A stretch of 64,000 bases of DNA from an uncultured Mollicutes bacterium (GTDB lineage Bacteria; Bacillota_I; Bacilli_A; RFN20; CAG-826). This document shows positions 30,619 to 50,461 of this stretch, piece after piece (position 1 is the first letter of the stretch; every line of letters begins with the position of its first letter). The DNA is taken from NCBI GenBank assembly GCA_945936135.1, contig CAMESG010000001.1:194748-258747 (forward strand), read 5' to 3'. Made by a program: the position numbers and the translations under genes. The notes under the pieces are model-generated. The model saw nothing but the letters and a program-made list of their open reading frames with translations, did no database searches and had not been told where the DNA came from.

Positions 30619-31133
30619 TTAGAACGTATATTCGCCTGCTTCGACGGTTGCCTTTCTTCCATCCGGCAGGATCACTTCTGCGCTGCAGTTGCATGGGATC
30701 TTGATCTTGAACGCCGTTTGTCTTTCAAAGCGCGCCGCAGTTGCTTGTATTGGTAATTGTCGCCCGGCATCATCAAATCGCTTTCCGCCCCGATCACCTT
30801 GGTGGCTTCCGCCTGCCCCTTGGCCACCGATTGCCAATCCGTCATGATCACCCCGTCAAACCCCCAGGATTCGCGCAAAAGGCCAATAAGAAGGGCAGGG
30901 GCGCTATTCACGTATTTGCCATTGATCTTGTTGTAACTGCTCATGATGCATCCAGGTTTTGCGTCCTGAACGACGCTCTTGAAGGCTTTCAGGTAGATCT
31001 CCCGAAACGCGCGTTCATTGATCTGACTCGAAGACTTCATGCGGTTGTCTTCCCGGTTGTTGCAGCAAAAATGCTTCAACGTGACCGTGAGATCGCCTTT
31101 CGATTGGACGCCTCTTGCCACTGCCTTGGCCAT
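30619..31133 (-). pseudogene. glycoside hydrolase family 3 remnant (fragments in 2 frames)
   Basis: One frame reads ...CIMSSYNKINGKYVNSAPALLIGLLRESWGFDGVIMTDWQSV..., the GH3 N-domain KH/D-motif region. A second frame carries a GH3-like C-terminal end. Only ~0.5 kb survives of a normal ~2.2-kb gene. Confidence 0.55.
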
Positions 31134-31734
31134 GGATCCAAACGATGCCTTGTCGCTATCGAATTCCTACGTCCAGAAATGCGGGCTATTGAACAACGTC
31201 GTCGCCTTATCGAACCTCCAATACCGCATGGTCCTCGACTTCACCGAGCGCGTCGAGAAGATCCGCATGGGAAGGCATCCTTCGAAGCCCGTGATCGACG
31301 TCCCAAATTACATTCAGCACCATCTATCCGAGGCGATCACGGCGAAACACATCGCGGATCACCTCTTCTTAAGCCGTCCCCACCTATCGACCAAATTCAA
31401 GGCCGAAGCCGGGATGAACCTAAGCGACTTCATCGTCCAAGAGAAAATAAGGGAGGCGAAGCGCTTGCTCCGTTATTCGGACAAGACCTCCTATGCGATC
31501 GCCTCGTTCTTGGGCTTTGCTTCCCAAAGCCATTTCTCCCTCGTGTTCAAGAAACACACGGGCAAGACCCCGAACGAGCATCGGGAATTGCACAGCAGAT
31601 CATCCAAAATCAAACCTCGATATAGGCGAAGGATTGAGGCGCCGTTCTTATCCCATGATCCGAAAGGTTCTTCTCGGGTTCGAAGATCGTCACTTCTCCT
31701 AATTCGTAGGCATAGGCGGTTTTGCGACCTTTGA
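31039..31734 (+). pseudogene. AraC-family regulator remnant (HTH domain only, no sensor domain, runs on without a proper stop)
   Basis: HIADHLFLSRPHLSTKFKAEAGMNLSDFIVQEKIREAKRLLRYSDKTSYAIASFLGFASQSHFSLVFKKHTGKTPNEHR is a complete AraC HTH pair at ~31300-31590. The N-terminal portion overlaps the GH3 remnant on the opposite strand. Confidence 0.5.
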
Positions 31735-32062: not shown

Positions 32063-32602
32063 TCAGTAGTTCTTGACGAAGAGCTCGAAGTAGCTTTGCG
32101 GATGGTTGCAGACGGGGCAGACCTTCGGGGCGTACTTGCCGACGACGATGTGTCCGCAGTTGCGGCATTTCCAGACCGCGAGGTCATCGCCGACGAAGAC
32201 GACACCTTCCTTGACGTTGTTCAAGAGCTTGCGGTAGCGCTCCTCATGGTGCTTTTCGATGGCAGCGACCATGCGGAATTTCGCGGCGATCTCCTTGAAG
32301 CCTTCTTCATCGGCGACCTTGGCGAAGCTATCGTACATGTCGGTCCATTCGTAGTTCTCGCCTTCGGCCGCGGCGAGGAGGTTGCTCGCGGTATCCTTGA
32401 TTTCGCCGCCTTCGAGGTATTTGAACCAGAGCTTGGCGTGCTCCTTCTCGTTGTCGGCGGTCTCTTGGAAGATCGCGGCGATCTGCTCAAAGCCTTCTTT
32501 TTTGGCCTTGGAGGCGAAGTAGGTGTATTTGTTGCGCGCTTGGGATTCGCCGGCGAAGGCTTCCATCAAGCACTTTTCGGTTTTGGATCCTTTGAGTTCC
32601 AT
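32063..32602 (-). CDS. rbr: rubrerythrin
   Basis: The ferritin-like diiron half has [10 protein letters not shown]...E..H and EKEHA...E..H. The C-terminal rubredoxin-like half has CRNCGH...CPVCNHP. Starts at [10 protein letters not shown]. Confidence 0.85.
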
Positions 32603-32913
32603 GATAGTGTTTTTTCTCCTTTTAGGGTATGCGCCAATTATAGGAAGTTTAGAAAACAACGGCAAGGAGAACACATTGCCATGGCCTTCGATTCTTTCCA
32701 ACGAATGAAAAAGAAAAAGAGAACATTGCACAACATTGCCCTAGCATTGCGCTAACATTATCTTTTCTTTGAATCCTACTAAGAAGCGGGAGGGGTCAAA
32801 GCAAACGAAGCACCTTTGTTCAGGGCTCAAGAAAGCGAATCCCCCGGGGAGCGCATGAAGTCAATGACCTACATTTCTGACGTCCTTACGTAGTTGGGAA
32901 AATCTCCAGTACC

Positions 32914-32979
32914 ACAAATGTTGGAAACGGAATTGCGCAAATGTTGGAAGTGAAATACCACAAATGTTGGAAGCGGAAT
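32914..32979. repeat. three imperfect direct repeats spaced 23 bp (CAAATGTTGGAARYGRAAT)
   Basis: ACAAATGTTGGAAACGGAAT at 32914, GCAAATGTTGGAAGTGAAAT at 32937 and ACAAATGTTGGAAGCGGAAT at 32960. They lie 50-115 bp upstream of the ATPase pseudogene. Confidence 0.6.
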
Positions 32980-33029
32980 CGAATAGATCGCATTTGACGC
33001 TTGTAATTTCTAGGCAGTAGGCAACGTTC

Positions 33030-34314
33030 ATGGAATATCGAGACCGCATTGCAGATCGCATTCTCAAGGACAAGTTGGAAACCTTTGGCGGCGTTTTGAT
33101 TTTGGGGCCAAAAGGATGTGGAAAGACGACGACCGCCAAGCATTTTGCGAAAAGCTTCATTGAATTTCAAAACGAAGAAAATCGAGAGAAATACCTTGCG
33201 GTTGTCGAGGCTGCGCCCTCGAGATTGCTCATCGGCGAAAAACCAAGGCTTTTCGACGAATGGCAAGATGCTCCTGAAATTTGGGGAGCCATCCGCAAAA
33301 ACATCGATGACGAGCAAGACGTTGGATCCTATATTCTCACCGGATCATCGGCCATGGACCTTTTTTTCCCTTCCCCATACGGGCACCATGCGGATTTCAA
33401 GGATGGAAATGTATCCCATGAGCTTGTTCGAAAGCGGCGAATCCAATGGCTCCGTCTCTTTGTCTGCCCTCTTCGATAAGCCGGATTCCTTCCTCTCCTG
33501 CTCATCGGATCTTTCCTTCGACGATCTGCTCTTCGCGCTTTGCAGAGGTGGCTGGCCGATTGTCTTCCGCATTCCGAAAAAAGAAAATCGCCTAAACGTT
33601 GCAAAAGATCTCTTCCGCCAAACGTGCGCGATCGACGTATCGAGCGTCGATGGAATCAAGCGAAATCCCGTCTGGGCAGAAACCATATTGAAGTCCTATG
33701 CCCGCAACCTTTGCACCCTCGCGGACGATAAAACCATTTACGGCGATGTCGAAAGCGCCACGGGAATATCTGAGAAGACCATGAGAAGCTACATCGAGGC
33801 GCTGGAACGTCTCTTCATCATCGAAGACATCGACGCTTGGTCGCCTTCCATTCGCTCCAAAACCGCCATATGATCCCAGAAAAAGCGATGCCTGATCGAT
33901 CCTTCCATCGCCGTGGCCGCCCTTGGTTTGACGCCAGAATATTTCAACGCGGACTTCAAGACCCTGGGCTTTCTTTTCGAATGCCTCTGCATCCGCGATT
34001 TAAGGATCTACAGCCAAAAGCGCCAAGGTCGCATCTCGTATTACCGCGATCGTTATGGCCTTGAGGCCGACTGCGTCCTTCACCTTGAAAACGGCCAATG
34101 CGCGCTGATCGAATTCAAGCTCGGCGGCAAAGAAATCGACGCAGGGGCGAAACACCTTTGCAAAATCGAGGAACTCATCAAGGAGAAGAATGAAAAAGAG
34201 ACGCAGACCCCCCTTCGTTTGCCTTCGTTGAAAATCGTCATCACCGCAGGACAATACGGTTACAAAAGGGAGGATGGCGTCCTCGTCATTCCCATTGGTT
34301 GCCTTAGGGATTGA
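33030..34314 (+). pseudogene. AAA+ ATPase (AAA_14-like) / DUF4143-like family gene, frameshifted (at least 2 frame changes)
   Basis: Frame 1 reads MEYRDRIADRILKDKLETFGGVLILGPKGCGKTTTAKHF...ILTGSS. Frame 2 continues ...MYPMSLFESGE...DKTIYGDVESATGISEKTMRSYIEALERLFIIEDIDAWSP. Frame 3 continues ...FECLCIRDLRIYSQ...YYRDRYGLEADCVL..., a DUF4143-like C-terminus. Its architecture matches the genes at 49011 and 57571. Confidence 0.7.
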
Positions 34315-34320
34315 GGCAAA

Positions 34321-34345
34321 AGAAAAACGGCGAGTCGCCTCGCCG
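34321..34345 (-). terminator. rho-independent terminator following tRNA-fMet
   Basis: Minus-strand CGGCGAGGCGACTCGCCG hairpin followed by TTTTTCT. Confidence 0.55.
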
Positions 34346-34357
34346 TAATTGCCGATT

Positions 34358-34433
34358 GGTTGCGGGAGATGGATTTGAACCACCGACCCCCAGGTTATGG
34401 GCCTGATGAGCTACCAGGCTGCTCTATCCCGCG
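34358..34433 (-). tRNA. initiator tRNA-fMet (CAT)
   Basis: Reverse complement CGCGGGATAGAGCAGCCTGGTAGCTCATCAGGCCCATAACCTGGGGGTCGGTGGTTCAAATCCATCTCCCGCAACCA. It has the C1:A72 mismatch and near-identity to E. coli tRNA-fMet outside the stems. CCA is encoded. Confidence 0.8.
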
Positions 34434-34559
34434 AGATCGTTCTTCTCATCGGCTCGTTTAAGATACTCGCCTTAAGGGCATCCGTCAAGGACGAGTTGAT
34501 GCTTCGCGCCCTTCTTCTCTTTTTCGTTCCATCGCCCTATCGGGAAGAGGATAATTCCT

Positions 34560-36671
34560 TTGATGAAAACGCCTCTCTCCTATCAATGGGCCTTCGTCGA
34601 AGGCTTTGAACAAGAATTCCTAAACAAGATCCCTTCGAATGCCATCTACGTCGATCTTCCCCACGGGATCAAGCTCCTCCCGTATCATGGCTTCTCCTTC
34701 GATGATTGTTCAGGAGTCTATACCTACATCAAGTCCTTCTCCGTGAAAAAGAAGGAAGGCCGTTCCTACTTCCTAGACTTTGAAGGCGCGATGGTCCAAT
34801 TCGATCTCTATCTCAATGGGATTGATCTAGGGCACTTCGTCTCGGGATACCTCCCCGTTGAGATCGACGCGACGGACGCCTTGAAGGACGGGAAGAACGA
34901 GGTCCTCGTCAAACTATCGACAAAGGAAGATCCGACGATCCCTCCATTTGGCACTCTTTTGGATTCTTGTTCTTTTGGAGGACTTTATCGTCCCGTCTAT
35001 CTGATCGACCGTCCAAAGGCCGGACAAATCAAGGATGTTTATGCCTATGGGACCAAAGACGGGACGATCCATCTATCCTATGAATCGGAAGAACCCGTTG
35101 AAGCATCCCTCTACCTCGAAGAAGACTTGCTTCTTGCCTTTAAGGGGAAAGAAGCCAAGGTCATCCATCCCAGGATCTGGACGATCGAGGATCCCTTCGT
35201 TTATCGCTTGGTTTTGAACAACGGGTTCGAAACCGTTGAACTCCCGTTCGCCTTCAAGGACGAAGAGGCGAGAGAGAATGCCCTCTTTGTCCAAGGGAAG
35301 CGTTGCTCCCTGCTTGGGATGACTTTGGATCTTTCTTATCCCTACATGGGCAAAGCCGTCTCTCCTTCTTTATCCCGCAAAGACGCAAGACTCCTCAAGG
35401 AAATTGGGATCAACCTTGCGAAGGTCTCTTATTACGCCCCAGACGATGCCTTCCTAGAAGAATGCGATCGCCTCGGCTTATACGTGATCAACGAGATCCC
35501 AAAGGGAGGAAACGCCTTCAAGGACCCCTTATGGAAGGAACGTTATCTAGAGTTCTATAAGACGATGGTCAAGAAGGAACGGCAGCACCCCTGCGTGCTC
35601 TCCTTCGATGCCGACGAAGAGACAAGAGGGATCCTGAAAGAACTTGATCCTTATCGTTCAAATCTAGGGAACATCCTCCTAAGCCAACGCAAAGCCCTAG
35701 GAGACATAAAACCGACGGATCGCTTATTCCTTCATGAAGATCGGATTTTGGCCCATATCAAGGCCCTAGGAGCCCTGAAGGGCAACCCTGATGCCGCAGG
35801 GACCATCCTGGGTCCTGCGTTTGACTATGTAAGCAAGAACGGAGACGAAGACGGGATCTCCTATCTTGGGGTCTATGATTTCTTCCGCGAGAAGAAGCCT
35901 AGCGCCTACGTCTATGCTTCCCAAAGGGAAGACCCCGTGATGGAAGTCATTGACCCATATTCCCTTCGTCCTTTGATCCTCTCCAACGCGGATTTCATCG
36001 AAGTCTATAAGGATGAAGTCAAGGTCACGACGTTATATCCAAGGGAAGAAGACGATCCAAATCTGAGGCATCCTCCCTTCCTTTGGGATAAGCCCGTGAA
36101 TCTAAACTTCTATGAAGAAGGGCTATCTCCAAGCGAAGGGCGATTCCTCGCCGAATGCATCAACTCCTGCATCCTTAAAGGCTTTGAGAGCCTGCCCTTC
36201 TTCAAAAGGCTAGAACTGAACTTCTTCTTGAAGAAGCACGAGTTCTCCTTCTCCTATTTCGAAGGCTTGGTTCGTAAATATGGATCCTTGGATTCATGTC
36301 TTATGTTCAAGGGATACAAGGATGGAAAGGTCATGGGAACAAGGACCTATAAGAAACAAGCCTTGTCGTCCTTTGATGTAAGATCCGATTCCCATGTCCT
36401 AAAGAACGAAGATACCTATGATTCCACGAGAATCGTGATCCAAAAGATCGATGAATTCGGGAATAAGGTCCATTACGCGGACGATGAACTTCTATTCGAA
36501 ACCGAAGGCCCAATCGCGTTATTGTCCCCGAAAGTCGTCCATCTTCTAGGAGGAAGCATCGGGGTCTACGTCCGGAGCCTAAGAACCAAGAAGAAAGAAG
36601 AGGCGAAGCTTTTGATCCATCATCGAGGAGGACGGATGGAAGTCCTCTTTGAAGTCGAAACCAAGGAATGA
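34560..36671 (+). CDS. glycoside hydrolase family 2-like protein (N-terminal sugar-binding domain clear; catalytic barrel degenerate)
   Basis: FEGAMVQFDLYLNGIDLGHFVSGYLPVEIDATDALKDGKNEVLVKL is a GH2 N-domain. CDRLGLYVINEIP...RQHPCVLSFDADEE sits where the GH2 NHPSIIMWSxxNE acid/base motif should be. No clear nucleophile motif follows. Confidence 0.55.
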   Translation: MMKTPLSYQWAFVEGFEQEFLNKIPSNAIYVDLPHGIKLLPYHGFSFDDCSGVYTYIKSFSVKKKEGRSYFLDFEGAMVQFDLYLNGIDLGHFVSGYLPVEIDATDALKDGKNEVLVKLSTKEDPTIPPFGTLLDSCSFGGLYRPVYLIDRPKAGQIKDVYAYGTKDGTIHLSYESEEPVEASLYLEEDLLLAFKGKEAKVIHPRIWTIEDPFVYRLVLNNGFETVELPFAFKDEEARENALFVQGKRCSLLGMTLDLSYPYMGKAVSPSLSRKDARLLKEIGINLAKVSYYAPDDAFLEECDRLGLYVINEIPKGGNAFKDPLWKERYLEFYKTMVKKERQHPCVLSFDADEETRGILKELDPYRSNLGNILLSQRKALGDIKPTDRLFLHEDRILAHIKALGALKGNPDAAGTILGPAFDYVSKNGDEDGISYLGVYDFFREKKPSAYVYASQREDPVMEVIDPYSLRPLILSNADFIEVYKDEVKVTTLYPREEDDPNLRHPPFLWDKPVNLNFYEEGLSPSEGRFLAECINSCILKGFESLPFFKRLELNFFLKKHEFSFSYFEGLVRKYGSLDSCLMFKGYKDGKVMGTRTYKKQALSSFDVRSDSHVLKNEDTYDSTRIVIQKIDEFGNKVHYADDELLFETEGPIALLSPKVVHLLGGSIGVYVRSLRTKKKEEAKLLIHHRGGRMEVLFEVETKE

Positions 36672-47743: not shown

Positions 47744-48370
47744 TTAGTTCTTCGATCCCAGGCGGTGGGTCAAAACCGCGAGGGATGAGGCGAGGTTGAC
47801 GTCCTCGATCACGATCGATTCGGGGAGCTCTAGATGCACGGGGGCGAAATTCCAGATCGCCTTGACGCCGGCGCGGACCGCCCTTGAGGCGACTTCCTGC
47901 GCGACCGGGGAAGGGACGGTGAGGATCAAGACGCTCGCGTTGCTTTCGCGAAGCACCTCCTCCATCTTCTCCATCGGGTAGACGACCTTGCCCCCGATCT
48001 TGGCGTAGGCAAGACGAGGAGAGGAATCGACGGCGGCCGCGATCTCCAGCCCCATCTCCGAGAAGGCGGGGAAGTTGAGCAAGGCCCCGCCGAGGTGGCC
48101 CGCCCCCGCAAGGACGGCATTGATCGAAGAACGGTAGCCCAAAAAGGTCTCGAGGTCCTCGATCAATTGGGCGACTTCGCGCCCCTTTTTCGGACGTCCG
48201 GGGACAAGGGAGACGGCCTGGAGGTCTTTGCGGACCTGTTCCTCGCTATAGCCGAGCTTCATGGCGATCTGAGGGGAGGAGACGATGTCGACGCCTTCTT
48301 CCCTCAATTCCATGAAATATTTCAAATAGATGGGGTAACGTTCCAATTGATTCTGCGAATACTTCTTCAC
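47744..48370 (-). CDS. rex: redox-sensing transcriptional repressor Rex (GTG start)
   Basis: Winged-helix N-domain (PIYLKYF...ISSPQIAMKLGYSEEQVRKDL) and Rossmann GAGHLGGAL. The start codon is GTG at 48368-48370, preceded by AGAAAGGAAGG. It is the first gene of the hydrogenase operon. Confidence 0.85.
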   Translation of the reverse strand: MKKYSQNQLERYPIYLKYFMELREEGVDIVSSPQIAMKLGYSEEQVRKDLQAVSLVPGRPKKGREVAQLIEDLETFLGYRSSINAVLAGAGHLGGALLNFPAFSEMGLEIAAAVDSSPRLAYAKIGGKVVYPMEKMEEVLRESNASVLILTVPSPVAQEVASRAVRAGVKAIWNFAPVHLELPESIVIEDVNLASSLAVLTHRLGSKN

Positions 48371-49010: not shown

Positions 49011-50396
49011 TCATTTAATGCAAAAGGCGGCGTATAAAGGAATTGATTTTATTCCGTTTTCAAATCCGAAATTTTTTTGGGATATTCTGATGGCATATTT
49101 TGGATGATATGTTTTTGCATAGCTTTCCAAACTTCTTGAACGAGTGTTTACGCCGGATTTAACTTCTATTGGAATAACGTTTGCGCCAAGTCTTGTAATG
49201 AAGTCTACCTCGGCATCCGATTTGCTTGTCCAGTAATAGGCTTTCAACCCATTTGCGATAAGCTGGTTGTTTATGTAGTTTTCCGCCAATCCGCCCCTGA
49301 ACTCAAAATCATTAGATTCCATTTCTATATCTTCCATGCGGACATCCTGAGAAGCGCCACACAAACCAACGTCGCCCATGAAAAATTTGAAATCGCTTGT
49401 CGATTTATTGCTTTCAAGCGGAAAAGAAACTTGCTCAAGCCGAAATAACTGACTGGATATTCCTGCGTTGCAAATCCATCGGATTGCTTCTTCATACAAA
49501 GACGCTCTTGCGCCAGTTTTCAATAACTTGTATTGGAACTTTTTGTTTTCCTTTGAAAGCTGTGTAGAAATGTTTTCGAATACAAGCTTCGTTTTTGGTA
49601 TTTCCGTTGCTTTATTGTACTTGCCCATATCATTGAAATATGCTTCGAGAATTTCCTTTTGAATGATACGAACGATCTCTACATTTTTTGTTTCCGCGTA
49701 TTCTTTGACGGCTTCTGGCATTCCGCCAACATACAGATATTGCTTATATAAATCTATTGCCATATCGTGTATCGGAGTCGGCAACGCCACGTTCGAATCA
49801 TATGCTTCTTTTATTTCTTGAATCAAATCAATGTATTTTTCCTTTTGAGCGAGCAAAAACTCTTCGAAATCCATGGGATACATGGTAATCATATCCACCT
49901 TGCCCACGGGGAATGAACTATCCCCTCTATTCACGGAAACGCCAAGCAGTGACCCTGATGCAATGATATGGTATTCATTTGCTTCTTCGTTGAAATACTT
50001 TAAAGAAGTGAGCGCTTGGGGACAGGCTTGTACCTCATCGAAAATAATCAGCGTATGGTTTGGGATAATCTCTTTCCTTTTATATAGGCTGAGCTGCTTA
50101 ACGATTCTTCGGGGATCAAGACTTGTAAAAAAGTCCTTCAACGCTTCCTCTTTTTCAAAGTTGCAATATACATAATTGGAGTATTCTTTTTGTGCAAACA
50201 GATTTACGGTATAGGTTTTTCCAACTTGCCTTGCCCCCTGCAATACTAGCGGCTTTCTTCTCGTTGAGTTTTTCCACTTCTGCAAATCTGCATAAATTTT
50301 TCTATACACAGGTTGTACTCCTTTTCTAACTTTAGACGAATCATACCATACTTCAGCATAAAATTGAATAATATTTACATTATTTTGGAGATACAT
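49011..50396 (-). CDS. AAA+ ATPase (AAA_14-like) / DUF4143-like family protein, in AT-rich island
   Basis: ...PLVLQGARQVGKTYTVNLFAQ (Walker A)...LIIFDEVQ (Walker B)...ASGS... A DUF4143-like C-terminus follows. Local GC is markedly lower than the flanks. The start is uncertain: ATG at 50396 or GTG at 50453. Confidence 0.7.
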   Translation of the reverse strand: MYLQNNVNIIQFYAEVWYDSSKVRKGVQPVYRKIYADLQKWKNSTRRKPLVLQGARQVGKTYTVNLFAQKEYSNYVYCNFEKEEALKDFFTSLDPRRIVKQLSLYKRKEIIPNHTLIIFDEVQACPQALTSLKYFNEEANEYHIIASGSLLGVSVNRGDSSFPVGKVDMITMYPMDFEEFLLAQKEKYIDLIQEIKEAYDSNVALPTPIHDMAIDLYKQYLYVGGMPEAVKEYAETKNVEIVRIIQKEILEAYFNDMGKYNKATEIPKTKLVFENISTQLSKENKKFQYKLLKTGARASLYEEAIRWICNAGISSQLFRLEQVSFPLESNKSTSDFKFFMGDVGLCGASQDVRMEDIEMESNDFEFRGGLAENYINNQLIANGLKAYYWTSKSDAEVDFITRLGANVIPIEVKSGVNTRSRSLESYAKTYHPKYAIRISQKNFGFENGIKSIPLYAAFCIK

Positions 50397-50461
50397 TTTG
50401 TGCAATATTACACTTTTTTGGAGATAAGGCACTTTATCTCGACTTTTCCGCACTCTGTTAC

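What the first reader, a model, noticed from the sequence alone, without database searches (positions are those of the whole stretch)
32880..34440. Third AAA+/DUF4143-like ATPase copy is pseudogenised and sits between a triple direct-repeat array and an initiator tRNA
The same ATPase architecture is here broken by at least two frameshifts (near 33360 and 33870). It abuts tRNA-fMet at 34358-34433, separated by only a terminator. It is preceded by three 20-bp repeats on a 23-bp period.

tRNA 3' ends are classic integration sites, and decayed cargo beside them indicates an old insertion. Together with the two intact copies elsewhere, this looks like acquisition of this gene family on repeated occasions followed by decay.
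Basis: seen in the sequence. Interest (0 to 1): 0.6.

Follow-up and report, generated by a model that had tools for sequence, protein, structure and literature searches.

The report
Broken defence-candidate ATPase with operator repeats
This is a recently inactivated copy of a very common but untested bacterial 'defence candidate' gene. Its three 23-base repeats are a conserved upstream signature of the whole gene clade and are probably the protein's own docking and regulatory site, while the neighbouring initiator tRNA looks coincidental.

Summary
The pseudogene is real, but the lesions are one +1 frameshift (T7 run, 33361-33367) and one in-frame CGA>TGA stop (33871-33873), not two frameshifts. 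Four other independent assemblies of the same species (Candidatus Enteromonas sp.) carry both lesions. One strain has an intact 427-aa allele at the same locus. Four more contigs have independent -1 or +1 frameshifts in a C-run (34208-34213). So the decay is recent, recurrent and polymorphic, not old.

The gene belongs to AAA_14+DUF4143, which is PADLOC candidate PDC-S01 (ATPase plus PD-(D/E)xK nuclease, untested).

tRNA-targeted insertion is not supported. There is no att duplicate and no integrase. Only two independent contexts among 124 homologue loci have a tRNA within 400 bp.

The unexpected result concerns the 3 x 23-bp repeat. In 99 of 127 homologue loci from many phyla, TRF (Tandem Repeats Finder) detects an array of period exactly 23 (or 46) bp just upstream of the start codon. 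The repeat type follows the gene, not the host. It forms the 5' edge of the DNA block shared between unrelated genomic contexts. Its variable half co-varies with residues 226-255, a predicted helix-turn-helix.

My best reading is an operator or loading array bound by the encoded protein. This is inferred, not shown.

The parts
32910..32979 (+). Array of three direct repeats with a 23-bp period (units 32910-32932, 32933-32955, 32956-32978). The unit is TACCACAAATGTTGGAAGCGGAA. This is the clade-typical upstream array and the proposed operator or loading site.
   Evidence: TRF score 98 and the repeat finder family D1. The 15-mer core occurs only here in the window. Homologous arrays of period 23 or 46 are detected in 99 of 127 homologue loci.
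32994..32999 (+). TTGACG, the only -35-like hexamer between the array and the ATG. No acceptable -10 follows it and no Shine-Dalgarno sequence precedes 33030. The expression signals of this lineage's copy are therefore weak or decayed.
   Evidence: Read (no + strand promoter reported between 32900 and 33030). In homologues the -35 starts 10-11 or 20-24 bp after the start of the last unit. Here the offset is 36 bp.
33030..34314 (+). Pseudogene of an AAA_14 (P-loop) + DUF4143 (predicted winged-helix plus PD-(D/E)xK nuclease) protein of the PADLOC PDC-S01 type. The repaired product is 427-428 aa.
   Evidence: PDLC04790, E 1.4e-55. An intact 427-aa allele is present in L007.
33361..33367 (+). T7 homopolymer, which is a +1 frameshift relative to T6 in the intact alleles.
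   Evidence: DNA alignment of 10 contigs.
33871..33873 (+). In-frame TGA created by a C>T change (CGA Arg in the intact alleles and in the family consensus 'TAIRS').
34208..34213 (+). C-run that is an indel hot spot in the species. A -1 in L001/L005 gives a 399-aa truncation. A +1 in L004/L006 gives an aberrant C-terminus. The window and L007 are in frame here.
34327..34346 (-). GC-rich hairpin followed by TTTTTCTTTT on the minus strand. It is the intrinsic terminator of the tRNA gene.
34357..34433 (-). Initiator tRNA-fMet (CAT) with encoded CCA. Its 3' end faces the 3' end of the pseudogene. A promoter-like site lies at 34488-34460.
   Evidence: Rfam tRNA, 53 bits.
32063..32602 (-). Rubrerythrin gene, the divergent neighbour. 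Its promoter-like site is at 32665-32637. It marks the left limit of the 1.66-kb interval that holds the array and the pseudogene.
49011..50453 (-). Intact, AT-rich (GC 0.38) paralogue with AAA_14+DUF4143, matching PDC-S01 model PDLC04786. No upstream repeat array.
57571..58869 (-). Intact, AT-rich (GC 0.35) paralogue with AAA_14+DUF4143, matching PDC-S01 model PDLC04787. No upstream repeat array.

Best explanation
The locus is a self-contained single-gene module of the PDC-S01 family (COG1373). It consists of a 3 x 23-bp direct-repeat array, a promoter region, and a gene for an AAA+ ATPase fused to a predicted winged helix-turn-helix and a PD-(D/E)xK nuclease. The module has resided in this Candidatus Enteromonas lineage long enough to approach host GC content.

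The gene is now being lost. The window strain carries a +1 frameshift and a nonsense codon. Other strains carry independent frameshifts, and at least one strain still has an intact allele. Its position next to tRNA-fMet is most likely incidental.

Proposed mechanism (inferred, not shown): the protein's own helix-turn-helix recognises the 23-bp units. Several protomers load head-to-tail on the array through AAA+ contacts, as DnaA or Orc1/Cdc6 do on their boxes. Because the array abuts the -35 hexamer, this occupancy sets the gene's own transcription, keeping a potentially toxic nuclease in check. The same DNA-binding surface would give the protein sequence-specific DNA recognition in its unknown, presumably conflict-related, activity.

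Approximate confidence by step:
- Identity of the gene and its pseudogenisation: 0.95.
- The array as a clade-wide cis element linked to the gene: 0.95.
- The array being bound by the encoded protein, with autoregulation: about 0.5.
- The tRNA adjacency being incidental: about 0.75.
For: Shown:
- Domain content and family are established. The nuclease motif D...E-x-K and Walker A are invariant in the family alignment.
- The lesions and their population polymorphism are established.
- The array is clade-wide. TRF finds period 23 or 46 in 46 of 53 genome loci and 53 of 74 metagenome loci, ending 14-154 nt (usually 40-90 nt) before the ATG. Only 3 arrays of similar period occur in the other ~480 kb of the genome loci.
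- The array is present from 37% to 100% protein identity. It occurs in Bacillota, Spirochaetota, Bacteroidota, Actinomycetota, Chloroflexota and a Methanomassiliicoccales archaeon.
- The unit type follows the gene rather than the host. CCACAAATCACT occurs in Treponema, Lachnospiraceae, Bacilli and Dialister copies, while two Bacilli copies carry different units.
- DNA similarity between copies in unrelated contexts begins at the array and ends at the stop codon or terminator. The ATPase is therefore the only protein that travels with the repeats.
- The units occur nowhere else near the gene, on either strand.
- The -35 hexamer starts at +10/11 or +20 to +24 from the start of the last unit, about one helical turn apart.
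- Divergence in the variable half of the unit correlates, after removing global divergence, with one protein segment. The peak is at residues 231-250 (partial r 0.29; 0 of 1000 permutations reach it). Equally variable segments show no such signal.
- That segment lies in the helix-turn-helix of the AF2 model (helices 233-243 and 248-260).
- The best structural matches are Orc1/Cdc6 bound to origin DNA, ORC and clamp loaders.
Against: - No binding or expression data exist. Everything about mechanism is inference.
- The AF2 model is mediocre (pLDDT 65), and the Foldseek matches have low TM (about 0.2) with E 2e-4.
- The covariation signal is driven largely by two deep clades (CAAAT... versus CAAAAACAC...). 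A mostly one-clade test on 29 loci was weak (partial r 0.18).
- The window copy lacks a canonical promoter and Shine-Dalgarno sequence, and its spacing is off. In this lineage the element may never have worked as in others.
- The two other PDC-S01 paralogues in the window have no array.
- One array in L058 precedes a Sir2-like gene instead.
- About 22% of loci have only degenerate repeats that fall below the TRF threshold.
Confidence: 0.6

Rival explanations
1. One reading: the gene is decayed cargo of an old element that integrated into the 3' end of tRNA-fMet.
For: The module lies 43 bp beyond the tRNA 3' end. The family is clearly horizontally mobile, at 60-70% identity across phyla. A few homologues sit about 165-210 bp downstream of a tRNA-Arg.
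Against: - No duplicated tRNA 3' end exists in 64 kb.
- There is no integrase or other mobility gene nearby.
- There is no GC discontinuity.
- tRNA proximity occurs in only 2 independent contexts among 124 loci, which is about the background rate.
- The decay is recent, and an intact allele is still segregating.
- The only partial repeat (15 nt, 87%) lies inside the rubrerythrin coding sequence.
Confidence: 0.1
2. The array is an iteron-type origin or a centromere-like site, and the AAA+/winged-helix protein is its initiator or partition protein. The module would then be a minimal replicon or maintenance unit that is now chromosomal.
For: The layout, direct repeats of about 20 bp on a 22-23-bp period immediately upstream of the gene of a DNA-binding protein, is that of iteron replicons and of archaeal ori-orc1 loci (established knowledge). 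The top fold match is Orc1/Cdc6 on origin DNA.
Against: - Only 17 of 72,556 plasmid records carry a homologue, and all are 23 kb to 0.9 Mb in size. The two examined hold many other genes.
- Four phage-labelled contigs carry it.
- Several copies per chromosome sit among housekeeping genes.
- No conserved AT-rich unwinding element was seen. The conserved block starts at the array.
- The conserved nuclease domain is not expected in an initiator.
Confidence: 0.1
3. The array is the recombination or mobility site of a single-gene selfish cassette, and the ATPase-nuclease mobilises it. PDC-S01 of this clade would then be a mobile element rather than, or as well as, a defence gene.
For: - The shared block between unrelated contexts begins exactly at the array and ends at the stop codon or terminator.
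- In four Erysipelotrichaceae genomes, a 1.65-kb unit that is 96-97% identical sits in three contexts. It is bounded on both sides by AACGTTTTGAGAA(C/T)T-like direct repeats.
- The family is extremely abundant and crosses domains (PMC12988326).
- An AAA+ domain plus a PD-(D/E)xK domain recalls TnsC plus TnsA (established knowledge).
Against: No second array or inverted copy marks the other end. Flanking direct repeats were seen in only one subgroup. No empty or filled site pair was recovered. The position next to the -35 is explained more simply by regulation.
Confidence: 0.15
4. The gene is functional and switched by phase variation or programmed frameshifting at the homopolymer runs.
For: Length variants of a T-run (T6/T7) and of a C-run (three states) segregate in the species.
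Against: The T7 allele is always linked to a nonsense substitution that no slippage can reverse. The runs are short (5-7 nt). No sample-level heteroplasmy data are available.
Confidence: 0.04
5. The frameshift and the stop codon are sequencing or assembly artefacts.
For: One lesion lies in a homopolymer.
Against: Identical lesions occur in four further assemblies from other samples. The other lesion is a substitution.
Confidence: 0.02

Closest known systems
PADLOC phage-defence candidate PDC-S01 (COG1373; Pfam AAA_14 PF13173 + DUF4143 PF13635)
   Same: The domain architecture is the same. The HMM match is PDLC04790 at E 1.4e-55. It is a single-gene unit, scattered among housekeeping genes, very abundant and horizontally spread. 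It is described as an ATPase fused to a PD-(D/E)xK domain (PMC12988326; PMC3424549).
   Different: The family is only a candidate. The PDCs are '145 untested phage defence candidates' (bioRxiv 10.1101/2024.01.29.577857). No cis element or DNA-binding specificity is described in any paper I could find. The 23-bp array seen here is restricted to one clade of the family, and the copy in the window is dead.
AAA+ initiators that bind repeated boxes next to their own gene (DnaA at the dnaA promoter; archaeal Orc1/Cdc6 at ORB elements beside orc1)
   Same: Both have an AAA+ domain plus a (winged) helix-turn-helix. Both have multiple cognate sites beside the protein's own gene. The best Foldseek match is 2qby_B, Orc1/Cdc6 on origin DNA.
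   Different: There is no sequence-level membership. The protein carries an extra PD-(D/E)xK nuclease domain. The sites are strictly direct repeats on a 23-bp period without an unwinding element. There are many copies per genome.
Iteron plasmids (for example P1 RepA/incC, pSC101 RepA)
   Same: Three to five direct repeats of about 20 bp on a 22-23-bp period overlap or abut the promoter of the gene whose product binds them, and that product autoregulates (established knowledge).
   Different: The protein is not a Rep-family initiator. Homologues are rare on plasmids, and the module is chromosomal.
McrBC-type restriction (AAA+ motor plus PD-(D/E)xK nuclease)
   Same: It combines an AAA+ NTPase with a PD-(D/E)xK nuclease. 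McrB appears among the fold matches.
   Different: Here there is one polypeptide and a different AAA+ clade. The DNA-binding module is a predicted winged helix placed between the ATPase and the nuclease. There is a cognate repeat array at the protein's own promoter.
tRNA-targeting genomic islands
   Same: It lies immediately beyond a tRNA 3' end.
   Different: There is no integrase, no att repeat and only a single gene. tRNA proximity is not a trait of the family.

Membership tests
AAA_14/DUF4143 = PADLOC PDC-S01 | N-terminal AAA_14 P-loop domain above the Pfam gathering score | tested here: met
   55.9 bits against a cut-off of 27 on the repaired translation. Walker A GPKGCGKT is present.
AAA_14/DUF4143 = PADLOC PDC-S01 | C-terminal DUF4143 domain above the Pfam gathering score | tested here: met
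   105 bits against a cut-off of 28.1.
AAA_14/DUF4143 = PADLOC PDC-S01 | Match to a PDC-S01 profile | tested here: met
   PDLC04790 at E 1.4e-55, covering residues 2-387.
AAA_14/DUF4143 = PADLOC PDC-S01 | PD-(D/E)xK catalytic motif conserved | tested here: met
   The sequence EAD...ALIEFK is present. D347 and K363 are invariant and E361 nearly invariant in the 54- and 67-sequence alignments.
AAA_14/DUF4143 = PADLOC PDC-S01 | Uninterrupted reading frame (functional member) | tested here: not met
   A +1 frameshift at 33361-33367 and a TGA at 33871-33873.
AAA_14/DUF4143 = PADLOC PDC-S01 | Protection against phage | not testable with these tools
   The source papers state that the family itself is untested (10.1101/2024.01.29.577857; PMC12988326).
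tRNA-integrated genomic island | Direct repeat of the tRNA 3' end at the far boundary (att) | tested here: not met
   The 25-mer of the tRNA 3' end occurs once in 64 kb with up to 3 mismatches allowed.
tRNA-integrated genomic island | Integrase or recombinase gene next to the tRNA | tested here: not met
   The neighbours are rubrerythrin, an unknown 139-aa ORF, an AraC-type regulator, a GH3 fragment, GH2 and LeuRS.
tRNA-integrated genomic island | Composition differs from the flanks | tested here: inconclusive
   GC is 0.48-0.52, like the flanks. GC3 is 0.51 against 0.59-0.80 in host genes.
tRNA-integrated genomic island | Empty site in relatives | tested here: inconclusive
   All nine contigs of the same species are occupied. 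Sister species share no synteny here.
Iteron replicon (Rep plus iterons) | Direct repeats of about 17-22 bp on a period of about 22 bp beside the gene | tested here: met
   Three repeats of 23 bp here, and period 23 throughout the clade.
Iteron replicon (Rep plus iterons) | Rep-family initiator that is typical of plasmids | tested here: not met
   No Rep family appears in Pfam or NCBIfam. Homologues occur in 17 of 72,556 plasmid records of 23 kb to 0.9 Mb, and the two examined hold many other genes.
Orc1/Cdc6-type initiator | AAA+ domain plus C-terminal winged helix with the same fold arrangement | tested here: inconclusive
   Foldseek top hit is 2qby_B at E 1.9e-4 but TM 0.18. The model pLDDT is 65. 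There is no sequence match in the PDB.
Phase-variable contingency gene | Reversible on/off switching by length change of a coding homopolymer | tested here: inconclusive
   Run-length variants exist. However, the off allele also carries a nonsense substitution, and no within-sample data are available.
Bacterial initiator tRNA | C1xA72 mismatch, A11:U24 and three G:C pairs in the anticodon stem | tested here: met
   C1xA72 and A11:U24 are present. Only two of the three G:C pairs are present, because 29:41 is A:U (read). tRNA-Met(CAT) is confirmed.

The most novel reading that the evidence does not exclude
One large clade of PDC-S01, reportedly the fourth most common 'defence' gene of prokaryotes, is a sequence-specific DNA-binding machine. 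It carries its own cognate 23-bp repeat array. Protomers polymerise on the array in an ORC/DnaA-like manner. The array also delimits a compact, horizontally mobile single-gene cassette. Under this reading the array is more than an operator. It is the self-recognition or nucleation site that controls the nuclease, or that mobilises the cassette.
Probability: 0.2. Interest if true: 0.8.

Novelty: new variant of a known kind. Interest (0 to 1): 0.5.

Why it matters
PDC-S01 genes are counted in tens of thousands in defence-system censuses, yet they have no tested function or mechanism.

A strictly phased 23-bp repeat array travels with the gene. Its sequence co-diversifies with a predicted helix-turn-helix. 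This gives the first concrete, cheap-to-test handle: what DNA does the protein recognise, how is the gene controlled, and is the cassette itself mobile?

For this genome the result is more modest. It documents ongoing, recurrent loss of one such gene in a reduced-genome gut Bacilli lineage, while two freshly acquired paralogues remain intact. This fits the rapid turnover expected of conflict genes. It also removes the tRNA-island reading.

Tried and rejected
- **Paralogue comparison.** tblastn and phmmer of the repaired protein against the window show that the three copies are not recent duplicates.
- **att site.** I searched for a second copy of the tRNA 3' end and for repeats in 30-36 kb. 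Only chance-level short matches appeared.
- **Empty site via rubrerythrin homologues.** Candidatus Enteromonas pullicola-type contigs place rubrerythrin in an unrelated FeoAB/glycosyltransferase context.
- **Empty site via GH2 homologues.** The nearest relatives are only 40-46% identical and lie in another context.
- **Rfam** found no family for the array.
- **PDB, by sequence and by profile,** has no solved relative.
- **NCBIfam and PHROGs** gave only P-loop noise.
- **Pfam on the isolated middle and C-terminal segments** returned only DUF4143 and no named HTH family.
- **Transposon test.** I looked for inverted or extra copies of each locus's unit within its locus and found none. The exception is the extra arrays in L058.
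- **Plasmid and phage collections** hold few homologues, which argues against a Rep or phage origin.
- **First covariation test on 29 loci** was weak. It became clear only with 47 loci.
- **Literature searches** for DUF4143, COG1373, PDC-S01 and the Pfam accessions found no description of the repeats.
Full report
**What is at the coordinates**

The interval 32603-34356 lies between a divergently transcribed rubrerythrin gene (32063-32602, minus strand) and a tRNA gene (34357-34433, minus strand). It holds one tandem array and one broken gene.
- Tandem Repeats Finder (TRF) reports three copies of a 23-bp unit at 32910-32979. Its score of 98 is the highest of only four arrays in the 64-kb window. 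The repeat finder gives the same three units.
- The reading frame starting at 33030 carries AAA_14 and DUF4143 once repaired (Pfam E 5.5e-15 and 4.5e-30).
- The tRNA is tRNA-Met(CAT) (ARAGORN; Rfam 53 bits). Its sequence shows a C1xA72 mismatch and A11:U24, the bacterial initiator hallmarks.
- The hairpin and T-run between gene and tRNA lie on the minus strand, so they terminate the tRNA.

**The lesions**

The ORF fragments 33118-33873 and 33913-34314 are in the same frame. The break near 33870 is therefore an in-frame TGA, not a frameshift.

Looking up the window's rubrerythrin protein by exact sequence returned eight contigs from other samples. Looking up the closest ATPase homologue returned a ninth. 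All nine are 97.6-100% identical to the window across 32603-34560. The alignment shows four allele classes.
- The window, L002, L003, L008 and L009 share an extra T (T7 versus T6 at 33361-33367) and a C>T change that turns CGA into TGA at 33871.
- L007 has neither lesion. It encodes a 427-aa protein with the family's canonical C-terminus.
- L001 and L005 have a -1 in the C-run at 34208-34213, which truncates the protein at 399 aa.
- L004 and L006 have a +1 in the same run, which gives an aberrant tail.

The lesions are therefore real, recent and polymorphic. The gene has been knocked out at least three separate times in one species.

Names attached to the LeuRS and rubrerythrin clusters identify the organism as Candidatus Enteromonas sp., a gut member of the Bacilli.

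**Family**

- More than 8000 database proteins match, and the best 120 listed are 65-96% identical. The named ones are annotated from Bacilli, Treponema, Lachnospiraceae and Ruminococcaceae.
- PADLOC models call all three window copies PDC-S01, each through a different sub-model.
- The literature describes PDC-S01 as an ATPase fused to a PD-(D/E)xK domain. It is reported as the fourth most common 'defence' across prokaryotes, with transfers between domains, and as unvalidated (PMC12988326; PMC13356809).
- The PDC set is explicitly '145 untested phage defence candidates' (10.1101/2024.01.29.577857).
- DUF4143 was assigned to the PD-(D/E)xK superfamily with unknown function (PMC3424549).
- No solved structure matches by sequence.

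**The other two copies**

The genes at 49011-50453 and 57571-58869 are intact. They share almost no sequence similarity with the pseudogene. They are strongly AT-rich, at GC 0.38 and 0.35 against 0.52 for the window. The pseudogene has GC 0.48-0.52 and GC3 0.51, against 0.59-0.80 in host genes. This fits three separate acquisitions, with the broken copy the oldest resident.

**tRNA-island idea**

- The tRNA 3' end occurs only once in the window.
- No integrase or other mobility gene is nearby.
- There is no GC step at the locus.
- Among 124 homologue loci, only L036 and the L041/L042/L057 group have a tRNA within 400 bp. That is two independent contexts.
- An empty site could not be found, because sister species share no synteny here.

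I regard the adjacency as incidental, but it is not formally excluded.

**The repeat array is a clade-wide feature**

Reading the 200 nt upstream of 53 homologues fetched from species-representative genomes showed a similar array in nearly all of them.
- TRF detects an array ending within 260 nt of the start codon in 46 of 53 genome loci. The period is 23 or 46 bp in every case. Only three arrays of period 18-26 occur in the remaining ~480 kb.
- An independent set from metagenomes gave 53 of 74 loci with period 23 or 46. Most of the loci scored as 'none' have visibly degenerate units.
- Copies on a Bacteroides uniformis plasmid (54% identity) and a Collinsella plasmid (37% identity) also have the array.
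- In register, the unit reads CC[A/G/T]CAAA(T/A), then about nine variable bases, then an A-rich end.
- The variable half is nearly identical among the units of one locus but differs between loci.
- The unit type follows the gene rather than the host. CCACAAATCACT occurs in Treponema, Lachnospiraceae, Bacilli and Dialister copies, while two Bacilli copies carry different units.
- The units occur nowhere else around the gene, on either strand.
- The two other window paralogues have no such array. The feature therefore belongs to one clade of the family.

**Extent of the unit**

Pairs of copies with 77-99% DNA identity that sit in unrelated contexts share a block. The block starts at, or a few bases before, the first repeat. 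It ends at the stop codon or the terminator. Examples are L015/L016, L028/L036, L025/L031/L029 and L011 against L015-L017.

In four Erysipelotrichaceae genomes a 1.65-kb block that is 96-97% identical lies in three contexts. It is bounded on both sides by AACGTTTTGAGAA(C/T)T-like direct repeats.

The ATPase is thus the only protein that travels with the repeats.

**Relation to the promoter**

Where a good sigma-70-like promoter exists, its -35 hexamer starts 10-11 bp (6 loci) or 20-24 bp (12 loci) after the start of the last unit. The two classes differ by one helical turn. The array therefore lies in untranscribed DNA, in phase with the -35.

The window copy is atypical. It has only a TTGACG at 32994, which is an offset of 36. 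It has no acceptable -10 and no Shine-Dalgarno sequence.

**Who binds the array?**

This part is inference.
- An AlphaFold2 model of homologue P0002 is of modest quality (pLDDT 65). It shows an AAA+ core, a helical lid, and a helix-helix-strand segment at 233-270. It then shows an alpha-beta-beta-beta-alpha-beta module carrying the invariant D...E-x-K motif.
- Foldseek's best hits are Orc1/Cdc6 bound to origin DNA (E 1.9e-4), ORC subunits, clamp loaders and McrB, all with low TM scores.
- I tested covariation in 47 dereplicated loci. I compared divergence of the unit's variable half with divergence of 20-residue protein windows, controlling for whole-protein divergence.
- The result peaks at residues 231-250 (partial r 0.29). 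None of 1000 label permutations reached this value (permutation maximum 0.257). A smaller peak lies at 301-325.
- Other equally variable segments show nothing.
- The main peak coincides with the predicted helix-turn-helix.

Caveats apply. Two deep clades drive much of the signal, and an earlier, mostly one-clade test on 29 loci was weak.

**Most likely mechanism and its rivals**

The simplest account is that the encoded protein recognises its own 23-bp units and assembles on them. This would control its own promoter. It would also reveal a sequence-specific DNA-binding capacity relevant to whatever the ATPase-nuclease does.

Three rivals remain open.
- The array could be an iteron or centromere-like site. 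The layout is similar, but homologues are rare on plasmids (17 of 72,556 records), no unwinding element is conserved, and the protein carries a nuclease domain.
- The array could be the recombination site of a selfish single-gene cassette. The sharp block boundaries and one set of flanking direct repeats support this. No second end and no empty/occupied site pair were found.
- The gene could be phase-variable. Run-length variants exist, but the off allele also carries an irreversible nonsense mutation.

**Verdict**

As written, the finding is mostly correct on the facts and half right on interpretation.
- It is an ordinary, recent pseudogene of a very common gene family. It is not a relic of a tRNA-targeted island.
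It is a conserved, strictly phased, gene-linked cis element of a large clade of PDC-S01.
- The papers and databases I could search do not describe this element.

Noticed in passing
window 32722-32759: A second small tandem repeat, about 3.5 copies of an 11-bp unit AACATTGCCCT, lies 60-95 bp upstream of the rubrerythrin promoter-like site. On the minus strand it reads GCAATGTT, which loosely resembles the CAAATGTTGG core of the 23-bp units. It could be a regulator site for rubrerythrin or a coincidence.
   Followed up: no
window 30672-31133 (-) and 31039-31734 (+): A 153-aa ORF matches only positions 149-282 of the GH3 N-terminal domain, so it is a gene remnant. It overlaps an AraC-type regulator ORF on the other strand. 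Sister contigs call GH3 fragments of 90-153 aa. This is a second decaying gene within 2.5 kb of the pseudogene.
   Followed up: partly
window 49011-50453 and 57571-58869: The two intact DUF4143 paralogues have GC 0.38 and 0.35 in a 0.52-0.55 neighbourhood, which points to recent horizontal acquisition. The 90% cluster of the second copy contains many shorter members (306-413 aa) in other assemblies. These may be contig-end truncations or further decay.
   Followed up: partly
window 34357-34433 (-): The initiator tRNA has A29:U41 in place of the first of the three conserved anticodon-stem G:C pairs. From memory, this variant is known from mycoplasmas, to which this lineage is related.
   Followed up: no
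window 34208-34213: A short C-run shows three different states among nine contigs of one species (in frame, -1 and +1). It is a local indel hot spot.
   Followed up: partly
L058 2864-2931: In a Flexilinea contig, an 'orphan' 3 x 23-bp array of the same type (ACCGCAAAAGTTCCAAG...) precedes a 237-aa Sir2/CobB-like ORF rather than an ATPase gene. Further units of another type lie just after the ATPase gene, at +1448 and +1471.
   Followed up: partly
L018, L019, L022, L024 (about 240 bp upstream and 135 bp downstream of the gene): A 1.65-kb array-plus-gene block that is 96-97% identical lies in three different contexts in Erysipelotrichaceae/Merdibacter. It is bounded on both sides by AACGTTTTGAGAA(C/T)T-like direct repeats. 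These could be att or target-site repeats of a small cassette.
   Followed up: partly
L041, L042, L057: Contigs binned to Dialister, Prevotella and a Lachnospiraceae share 82-93% identity over more than 6 kb. The shared region includes tRNA-Arg(CCG), the array and the ATPase gene. This is either a larger mobile element or a binning error in that study.
   Followed up: no
homologue loci: The -35 hexamer sits in two discrete registers relative to the last repeat unit, +10/11 and +20 to +24, about one helical turn apart. In the second class the sequence TTGACAAA itself mimics the CNCAAA core of a unit.
   Followed up: partly
window 47744-48370 (-): A Rex-type redox regulator (Put_DNA-bind_N + CoA_binding) lies directly upstream of the genes for NADH-dependent hydrogenase-like subunits. 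This is an ordinary arrangement and was noted only while annotating the neighbourhood.
   Followed up: no
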